From the NCBI RefSeq assembly GCF_011045215.1, contig NZ_CP049201.1: a stretch of DNA of 64,000 bases. The stretch is one strand, 5' to 3'. Within the stretch, counting starts at the first letter, position 1. Each line of letters starts with the position of its first letter. Of this stretch, positions 1,030 through 2,371 are shown one piece after another. Source of the DNA: Escherichia coli (GTDB lineage: Bacteria; Pseudomonadota; Gammaproteobacteria; Enterobacterales; Enterobacteriaceae). Both the position numbers and the translations under genes were made by a program. The notes under the pieces were generated by a model. It had not been told where the DNA came from and ran no database searches. It saw nothing but the letters and a program-made list of their open reading frames with translations.

Positions 1030-1690
1030 TTTAGTTCTCCTTTATTTAATTAACAAAGGAAATATATATTATTAAATAAACAAAATGCAAATATATTTTT
1101 ATATTTATTTAATTAAATAGTTATATTTTTATTATATTTCATATAAGGTGTTGTTTTTCATTGTTATTTTATTTTTATCAAAAAGTGCTGTGTTTTATTT
1201 GATTGATTTGGTTTGAGAGTAGTGATTGATATAGTATGAATTGGCGATGAGGGTGTTTTAAAAAATAAATTTATCAAAGTGCAAAGGTGCAATGTGGGGC
1301 TTTGTATTAAATTAATGATGTTAGCGCCCCTTGGCTATCTAACTAAAGGTTAAAGCCAAGGGGAGAGTGTTCAGGCAGATTCAATTCATAATCTTTTTTT
1401 TGTAATTGCTTTACAGGTAACTGGTTGAAGCGTTGTTCGTAAAACCTTTTGCTCTCTCTGTAATTTGTCCTGGAGGATTTCTTCATAAAAGTAGCGTTCT
1501 TTTAGCGATTCTATATCAACTTTTATATCATTACGTATTAACCATTTAATTAGCAGTCTTCCTGCATAGTGCGTCAGTAGATATGTACTGCTTATGTAAA
1601 ACCAAACATGACTAATGTCTGTCAGCTTCTTTAGTTGTAAAATTAATTTTTTAGCGTCGGCATTTGTTGGTGTTATGATACATTTATCAC

Positions 1691-2371
1691 TTATCTCAAA
1701 TTCATTTTTTGTTTTATAAGCAATGACAACAGCTCAATTGATTTAAATGTAATGTTCTTGAGTACAATTTTTGAACTATTTGTAAGGTGAATATTACGGA
1801 TAAAAAAGCGCATGTAGTTATCATTTTTAGATTCCCAGTGCGTATATTTACCAACTATGCTATTATTTTCTGACTGCCAGTGATCGAATGCTGTCTGTCC
1901 ACTTATATTTTTATGATTAATGTCGCAACCAGCCTCAATTAGTGCATCGTACACATATCCTTCAAATGGAATGAAAAGAAAGGAATTGCCATATCTATCT
2001 TTGGTATGGATATCTAGTCCTGCTTTGATAAGATATTTTACTAACCCTGGTGAAACATCAATATGTTGAATCGCAAGGGTGCCTGACTTATTCCGGTGGT
2101 TAACATTAATACCATTGCTGACAAGAAGTTCCACTGTTTCAACATTTTGAGCATAGAATAATGCATTATTACCGTCATTATCCAAGTGGTGAATGTCAAT
2201 GTCAGCGTCAATCATTGCCTGTATAGCTTCAGGTACATTACAGGTAAAAAGAGCAGTTTGACCTTTACTATTGCACATATTTATATCCATGCCAGCCTTA
2301 AGGCAACGAAGGACACCATTTTTAGACTTTACACGGAATAGGTTATTTTTATTATTTTCTCTTGATATCAT
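1691..2371 (-). CDS. Ankyrin-repeat protein, 226 aa (probably frameshift-truncated, see findings)
   Basis: ORF translation shows about five ankyrin repeats (NSKGQTALF, DNDGNNALFYA, NKSGTLAIQH, DRYGNSFLF, NISGQTAF); very AT-rich. Confidence 0.6.
   Translation of the reverse strand: MISRENNKNNLFRVKSKNGVLRCLKAGMDINMCNSKGQTALFTCNVPEAIQAMIDADIDIHHLDNDGNNALFYAQNVETVELLVSNGINVNHRNKSGTLAIQHIDVSPGLVKYLIKAGLDIHTKDRYGNSFLFIPFEGYVYDALIEAGCDINHKNISGQTAFDHWQSENNSIVGKYTHWESKNDNYMRFFIRNIHLTNSSKIVLKNITFKSIELLSLLIKQKMNLR

What the first reader, a model, noticed from the sequence alone, without database searches (positions are those of the whole stretch)
1386..2371. Ankyrin-repeat gene likely truncated by a frameshift at a homopolymer tract; about 115 start-less codons remain open downstream
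The 226-aa ankyrin ORF stops at 1691. In the +1 frame an open stretch of about 115 codons with no ATG/GTG/TTG start runs from about 1735 to a TGA at 1386-1388, overlapping the ankyrin 3' end. The overlap spans an A-rich tract (aaaacaaaaaatg on the coding strand, about 1700-1712). That pattern fits a longer ancestral gene of about 330 aa broken by a single-base indel, or less likely programmed frameshifting.
Basis: seen in the sequence. Interest (0 to 1): 0.5.

Follow-up and report, generated by a model that had tools for sequence, protein, structure and literature searches.

The report
Ankyrin gene broken by one-base deletion
A 328-codon ankyrin-repeat gene on a mobile island of E. coli has lost one A from a run of seven, which cuts the protein to 226 residues; this is an ordinary strain-private pseudogene, not programmed recoding.

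Summary
On the minus strand, a 226-aa ankyrin ORF (1691-2371) is followed, in another frame, by 115 open codons with no ATG/GTG/TTG, ending at TGA 1386-1388. Only 4 of 100,000 shuffles of that stretch stay open. Near-identical island copies carry one uninterrupted 987-nt gene of 328 aa. In the copies that share the window's allele, the only difference inside the gene is A7 versus the window's A6 (1705-1710). All 47 complete E. coli genomes matched by a 70-nt probe have A7. The exact truncated protein (WP_250848393.1) is on record from one chromosome contig, plus a separate read assembly of run SRR11014969 that is 100% identical to the window. A 314-aa paralogue in the same island aligns end to end across the break. 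The lost C-terminal 106 codons evolve under purifying selection (dN/dS 0.15-0.20). Programmed frameshifting is not supported: homologues are in frame, there is no tandem slippery heptamer, and there is no downstream structure. The family's function is unknown; it rides on integrase- and relaxase-bearing islands, here at ssrA. The same island also carries a private amber stop in hsdR. Interest is low.

The parts
1386..2371 (-). Whole frameshifted gene: 986 nt here, against a 987-nt, 328-aa CDS in other strains (WP_032343006.1 allele; the window's own repaired allele is P0059)
1691..2371 (-). Truncated ORF of 226 aa: residues 1-222 of the intact protein plus 4 out-of-frame residues (MNLR) and stop TAA 1691-1693. 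It is identical to RefSeq WP_250848393.1.
1705..1710 (-). A6 run on the coding strand (T6 on the + strand). It is A7 in every intact copy, so this is the site of the 1-nt deletion.
1386..1733 (-). Start-less open frame of 115 codons plus TGA. Bases 1389-1706 encode residues 223-328 of the intact protein (the conserved C-terminal region).
2379..2384 (-). AAGGAG Shine-Dalgarno-like sequence, 7 nt upstream of the ATG at 2369-2371
   Evidence: sequence read
1327..1363 (-). Stable hairpin with a 10-bp stem (CCCCUUGGCU/AGCCAAGGGG), about 20 nt after the full-length stop. It has no U-run, so it is not a canonical intrinsic terminator. There is nothing comparable after the premature stop.
1..573 (-). 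5' part of the paralogous ankyrin gene (314 aa, WP_032186623.1), cut by the window edge. It is 30% identical end to end to the intact 328-aa protein, including across the frameshift site.
589..1029 (-). 146-aa hypothetical gene between the two ankyrin genes. It is conserved next to the ankyrin-relaxase module in related islands, and has no family match.

Best explanation
This is a strain-private loss-of-function allele. A 328-codon gene encodes an ankyrin-repeat protein with a family-specific C-terminal region, and it is carried on a mobilizable genomic island inserted at the 3' end of ssrA. The gene lost one A:T pair from an A7 run (A7 to A6, window 1705-1710), most likely by replication slippage. 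Translation starts normally at 2371 and reads 222 correct codons. It then runs out of frame for four codons (MNLR) and stops at TAA 1691-1693. The last 106 codons are left as a start-less, untranslated remnant. Shown: the deletion, the intact relatives, homology across the break and selection on the lost part. Inferred: the deletion arose by slippage, it is a true mutation rather than a read error, and the product is non-functional. In the structural model the truncated product keeps the ankyrin stack. It loses two of the three beta-strands and most helices of the C-terminal region.
For: (1) An intact 987-nt CDS lies at the same place in NZ_CP195804.1, and the only indel across the 16-kb island is A7 versus A6. 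(2) Island copies carrying the window's own allele (L013-L015, L017) are identical to the window inside the gene except for that one base. (3) All 47 complete E. coli genomes that match a 70-nt probe give a 71-nt, one-gap alignment, meaning A7; none is identical to the window. (4) The exact 226-aa product is on record from one 5.41-Mb contig. The repaired allele P0059 is recorded on 13 contigs (24 contigs read), and the S125/L190 allele P0058 is on 290 contigs. The 90%-identity cluster has 1344 member sequences. (5) The Logan read assembly of SRR11014969 is 100% identical to window 1-12371, including the A6 run. (6) The paralogue aligns over residues 9-328 at 30% identity, E=1e-48, straight through the break. 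In an 18-sequence family alignment, C231, T251, S254, F258, K276, I279, I283 and L290 are invariant, and all lie downstream of the break. (7) dN/dS for codons 223-328 is 0.15 and 0.20 against homologues of 80% and 60% identity. For codons 1-222 it is 0.14 and 0.15. (8) The AlphaFold model (pLDDT 83) places the break after helix 209-220, before strands 225-233 and 257-259.
Against: No raw reads or quality values were available. The two assemblies that show A6 may derive from the same sequencing run, so a systematic homopolymer miscall is not formally excluded. Non-function of the 226-aa product is inferred only: its ankyrin part is complete and could still bind a partner. RefSeq annotates the 226-aa ORF as an ordinary protein, not a pseudogene.
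Confidence: 0.86

Rival explanations
1. Sequencing or assembly artefact: the strain really has A7, and one A was dropped by a homopolymer miscall.
For: The difference is a single base in a homopolymer, the classic error site. The allele is known from only one strain.
Against: An assembly made separately from the reads of SRR11014969 gives the same A6, in a 35-kb contig that matches the window 100% over 12,371 nt. Contiguity and identity of that kind suggest accurate reads; this is inference. The window has no other homopolymer indel in coding sequence over 46 kb compared with NZ_CP195804.1. The other two private differences in the island are substitutions, not indels.
Confidence: 0.09
2. Programmed recoding: the A6 arrangement is decoded into the full-length protein by -1 ribosomal frameshifting or by transcriptional slippage.
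For: A -1 re-pairing of Lys-tRNA from AAA (1707-1705) to AAA (1708-1706) would restore exactly the ancestral protein sequence ...QKNEFE (sequence). A-runs are known slippage sites (own knowledge), so a trace of full-length product is conceivable.
Against: All homologues examined are in frame, so the split arrangement is not conserved. In the zero frame the codons are CAA AAA ATG, which is not an X XXY YYZ tandem slippery site (sequence). The 80 nt downstream fold no better than shuffles (-3.9 kcal/mol, z = +0.56). The A-run is absent from the homologue of 60% identity. Efficient transcriptional slippage in E. coli needs longer runs, about 9 or more (own knowledge).
Confidence: 0.02
3. Phase-variable (contingency) switch: the A-run toggles the gene on and off at high frequency.
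For: An A7 run is kept at nearly the same place in the Salmonella homologue of 80% identity, although the local protein sequence differs (QKKI against KQKN).
Against: There is no length polymorphism: 47 of 47 complete genomes have A7. Only one off-allele was found among the members read of the clusters holding the 1344 full-length-cluster sequences and the truncated forms. Seven bases is short for a contingency tract in Enterobacteria (own knowledge). Other disrupted copies end at different positions.
Confidence: 0.03

Closest known systems
Homopolymer-frameshift pseudogenes in accessory genes of Enterobacteria (ordinary gene decay)
   Same: A single-base loss in a mononucleotide run gives a premature stop a few codons later and a start-less open remnant of the old frame. 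Intact orthologues exist in close relatives, and the allele is private to one strain.
   Different: Nothing substantive differs. RefSeq names the truncated ORF as a normal protein (WP_250848393.1) rather than flagging a frameshift.
Ankyrin-repeat proteins (Pfam Ank_2 PF12796; solved ankyrin/DARPin folds)
Legionella Dot/Icm ankyrin effectors (NCBIfam T4SS_AnkH, T4SS_AnkY)
   Same: Both are bacterial ankyrin-repeat proteins, and the paralogue gives weak matches through its repeats.
   Different: The scores are 41 and 28 bits against curated cut-offs of 600, so it is not a member. The 328-aa protein itself does not hit these models.
Programmed -1 frameshifting on A-rich sites (for example dnaX A AAA AAG; IS1 insAB' on A6C)
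   Same: There is an A-run at the junction of two overlapping frames, and a -1 shift would join them.
   Different: The split is not conserved, there is no tandem slippery heptamer in frame, and there is no stimulatory structure.

Membership tests
Frameshift pseudogene (single-base indel) | Close relatives carry one uninterrupted ORF spanning both frames | tested here: met
   A 987-nt, 328-aa CDS is present in NZ_CP195804.1 and in L012-L017.
Frameshift pseudogene (single-base indel) | The frames are joined by restoring a single base; there is no other lesion in the gene | tested here: met
   A7 versus A6 is the only difference within the gene against L013-L015 and L017.
Frameshift pseudogene (single-base indel) | The downstream frame is homologous to the C-terminus of relatives and is under purifying selection there | tested here: met
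   The paralogue aligns end to end. There are 8 invariant residues downstream of the break. dN/dS is 0.15-0.20.
Frameshift pseudogene (single-base indel) | The lesion is a true mutation in the organism, not a read error | tested here: inconclusive
   It is reproduced in the Logan assembly of SRR11014969, but reads and platform could not be inspected.
Programmed ribosomal frameshift / transcriptional slippage gene | The two-frame arrangement is conserved among homologues | tested here: not met
   47 of 47 genomes, and all family members aligned, are in frame.
Programmed ribosomal frameshift / transcriptional slippage gene | A slippery heptamer X XXY YYZ in the zero frame | tested here: not met
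   The zero-frame codons are CAA AAA ATG, so only single-tRNA P-site slippage is possible (sequence).
Programmed ribosomal frameshift / transcriptional slippage gene | A stimulatory hairpin or pseudoknot a few nucleotides downstream | tested here: not met
   MFE is -3.9 kcal/mol and z = +0.56 for the 80 nt downstream.
Programmed ribosomal frameshift / transcriptional slippage gene | The trans-frame protein is produced | not testable with these tools
   This needs mass spectrometry, western blotting or ribosome profiling.
Phase-variable contingency locus | Tract-length polymorphism among and within strains | tested here: not met
   A7 is found in 47 of 47 complete genomes. There is one A6 allele on record.
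Ankyrin-repeat protein | Sequence match to ankyrin-repeat profiles | tested here: met
   Ank_2 PF12796, E=1.1e-8, residues 17-94, plus weaker repeats up to about residue 163.
Ankyrin-repeat protein | Stacked helix-loop-helix repeat fold | tested here: met
Dot/Icm T4SS ankyrin effectors (AnkH/AnkY equivalogs) | Score above the curated NCBIfam cut-off | tested here: not met
   The paralogue scores 40.8 and 27.9 bits against cut-offs of 600. The 328-aa protein has no hit.
Known anti-phage defence protein families (PADLOC) | A match beyond the generic ankyrin repeats | tested here: not met
   The only match is PDC-M72A, E=7e-11, over residues 19-100, which is the ankyrin part.

The most novel reading that the evidence does not exclude
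The truncation is not neutral decay. Over 8.4 kb, this island differs from its nearest copies by just three private changes, and two of them are inactivating: the ankyrin frameshift and an amber stop in hsdR. One reading is that selection in this host favoured loss of both proteins; the ankyrin protein might, for example, act together with or against the island's type I restriction system. Another reading is that the two transitions plus one homopolymer deletion mark a mismatch-repair-deficient mutator lineage.
Probability: 0.08. Interest if true: 0.4.

Novelty: already known. Interest (0 to 1): 0.12.

Why it matters
It matters little beyond annotation. The 226-aa ORF is filed in RefSeq as a normal protein (WP_250848393.1), when it is the front part of a frameshifted 328-aa gene, so it should be marked as a pseudogene. 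The family itself is more interesting than this broken copy. It combines ankyrin repeats with an uncharacterised C-terminal region. It is found almost only in Enterobacterales and usually sits beside the relaxase module of integrated islands that carry restriction or other defence cargo. It has no known function and would be a reasonable target for a mobilization or defence assay. This natural truncation would then serve as a ready-made C-terminal deletion allele.

Tried and rejected
(1) Programmed frameshifting or slippage: rejected (no tandem slippery heptamer).

(2) Phase variation: rejected, because there is no tract polymorphism.

(3) An error-riddled assembly: rejected for this window. 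The only coding-region homopolymer indel against NZ_CP195804.1 in 46 kb is this one.

(5) Is the 146-aa neighbour a stand-alone copy of that region? No: hhalign probability is 0.2%.

(6) Plasmid copies: none. Plasmid hits were to IS1 only.

(7) Literature: no paper mentions the accessions or this family. The PIME and ROD21-like island families that I read about are different elements.

(8) Mutator test: not feasible. No complete E. coli genome is closer than 99.3% to the window's core region.

Full report
OBSERVATION. On the minus strand, an ATG-initiated ORF of 226 aa runs from 2371 to the stop TAA at 1691-1693. AAGGAG at 2379-2384 lies 7 nt upstream of the ATG (sequence). In another frame, 115 sense codons are open from 1733 to 1389 and end at TGA 1386-1388. 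None of these codons is ATG, GTG or TTG. The two frames overlap over 1691-1733, a stretch that contains an A6 run at 1705-1710 on the coding strand. The stretch is 32% G+C, and only 4 of 100,000 shuffles of it stay open in frame. The open remnant is therefore not chance.

WHAT IT IS. A megablast of window 1-2900 against 5,426 complete E. coli genomes found 81 genomes that hold the whole segment. In the best one, NZ_CP195804.1, the same place is annotated as a single 987-nt CDS of 328 aa: WP_032343006.1, an ankyrin repeat domain-containing protein. A base-by-base comparison shows four differences in the gene. Three are substitutions (S125R, and two adjacent bases giving L190F). The fourth is one missing A, A7 to A6, at 1705-1710. 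Across the whole 16-kb island this is the only indel.

The three substitutions are older than the frameshift. The window's gene with one A restored translates to a protein (P0059) that is already in the public collection, on E. coli and Salmonella contigs. The island copies that encode it (L013-L015, L017) are identical to the window inside the gene except for that one base.

A 70-nt probe centred on the tract matched 47 complete genomes. All 47 gave a 71-nt, one-gap alignment, meaning A7, and none was identical to the window. The exact 226-aa product exists as RefSeq WP_250848393.1, recorded on one 5.41-Mb contig. It is also encoded by a Logan assembly of run SRR11014969, whose contig is 100% identical to window 1-12371, A6 included.

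IS THE DOWNSTREAM FRAME REALLY CODING IN RELATIVES? Yes, on three grounds.
- The second ankyrin gene of the same island (314 aa; its 5' part is window 1-573) aligns with the intact 328-aa protein over residues 9-328. Identity is 30% and E=1e-48, running straight across the break (LLIKQKNEFEISDKC against LLQKKNLNFTISDNC) down to a shared basic C-terminal tail.
- A database search found full-length relatives of 291-328 aa in Escherichia, Salmonella, Klebsiella, Enterobacter, Citrobacter and Cronobacter. In an 18-sequence alignment, eight invariant residues lie downstream of the break: C231, T251, S254, F258, K276, I279, I283 and L290.
- Nei-Gojobori dN/dS for codons 223-328 is 0.15 and 0.20 against the homologues of 80% and 60% identity. 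That matches the ankyrin part, at 0.14 and 0.15.

RIVAL EXPLANATIONS. Four alternatives were weighed.
- Programmed frameshifting. A -1 re-pairing of Lys-tRNA on the A-run would recreate the ancestral sequence. However, the split arrangement is not conserved in any homologue. The zero-frame codons CAA AAA ATG do not form an X XXY YYZ site. The 80 nt downstream are unstructured (z = +0.56). The homologue of 60% identity has no A-run at all.
- Transcriptional slippage. Efficient slippage in E. coli needs longer runs (own knowledge), so at most a trace of full-length product is expected.
- Phase variation. There is no tract polymorphism, and other disrupted copies end at other positions.
- Sequencing artefact. 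This cannot be excluded without the reads. Against it, an assembly made separately from the reads shows the same base count, and the window shows no other coding homopolymer indel in 46 kb.

CONTEXT. The gene lies on an island inserted at the 3' end of ssrA; the tmRNA gene is at 16204-16566 on the minus strand. From ssrA outward, the island carries an integrase, a recombinase, two ParB-like genes, a type I restriction-modification system, a degenerate IS1, this ankyrin gene, a 146-aa gene and the ankyrin paralogue. Beyond the window start come a 134-aa gene and a relaxase.

In related islands the block '146-aa gene, ankyrin gene of 314-317 aa, 135-aa gene, relaxase' is conserved while the cargo differs; one example carries HEPN and GmrSD genes instead of the type I system. 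Another subfamily sits beside integrases in Salmonella, paired with a 412-aa ankyrin gene. The family is thus part of integrative, probably mobilizable, elements.

COMPARISON WITH WHAT IS KNOWN, AND VERDICT. This is a textbook homopolymer frameshift in an accessory gene. Both the intact and the truncated sequences are already in public databases, although RefSeq does not flag the truncated one as a pseudogene. Interest is low.

The one mildly curious point concerns the island's private changes. Against its nearest copies, the window's island has just three over 8.4 kb: this deletion, an amber stop in hsdR (CAG to TAG, 5701-5703, absent from 316 of 316 genomes), and a Met-to-Val change in the IS1 remnant (3065). 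Two of the three inactivate genes, and the spectrum (two transitions plus a homopolymer deletion) resembles a mismatch-repair defect. Three events prove nothing. The test was not possible because no complete genome is closer than 99.3% to the window's core.

Noticed in passing
window 5701-5703 (within hsdR, 3601-6840, - strand): The type I restriction subunit R gene carries an amber stop (CAG to TAG, Q380*). This splits it into ORFs of 379 aa and 681 aa. The stop is absent from all 316 complete E. coli genomes that hold this hsdR, and from the nearest island copies. It is private to this strain, like the ankyrin frameshift.
   Followed up: yes
window 1-12371 against L013 (Logan SRR7402406): Over 8,372 aligned bases, the island differs from its nearest copies by only three changes: the hsdR amber (5703), a Met-to-Val change in IS1 insA (3065) and the A7-to-A6 deletion. 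Two transitions plus one homopolymer deletion is a mismatch-repair-mutator-like spectrum, but n=3. It could not be tested, because the window's core region is at most 99.3% identical to any of 5,426 complete E. coli genomes.
   Followed up: partly
window 1-16203 against 16204-46000: The island next to ssrA (tmRNA 16204-16566, - strand) shows only 12 differences over about 16 kb compared with strain 19AR1724. The flanking core genome differs at roughly 13-93 sites per 2 kb. The same island allele also occurs in Salmonella contigs. The island is therefore a recent horizontal arrival in a divergent E. coli background.
   Followed up: partly
window 2891-3556: This IS1 copy is degenerate. Its insA-like ORF is 80 aa and appears shorter than the canonical InsA (own knowledge). 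RefSeq marks the equivalent copy in 19AR1724 as a pseudogene with an internal stop. It lies between hsdR and the ankyrin gene.
   Followed up: no
window 1386-2371: Four of the 12 island differences from strain 19AR1724 fall inside this 1-kb gene. Besides the deletion, these are S125R and L190F, the latter through two adjacent bases at 1804-1805. The numbers are too small to call diversifying selection.
   Followed up: no
residues about 180-328 of the intact protein (window 1386-1835); L004-L011: The C-terminal region of this ankyrin family matches no known domain or solved fold. It is found almost only in Enterobacterales. The family is typically encoded next to a 146-aa gene, a 135-aa gene and a relaxase on integrated islands whose cargo includes restriction or other defence genes.
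   Followed up: partly
window about 34556 (3' end of raiA): Strain 19AR1724 has an extra 9-nt tandem copy (CTTCTTCAA) relative to the window, inside the last codons of raiA. This is an in-frame length variant.
   Followed up: no
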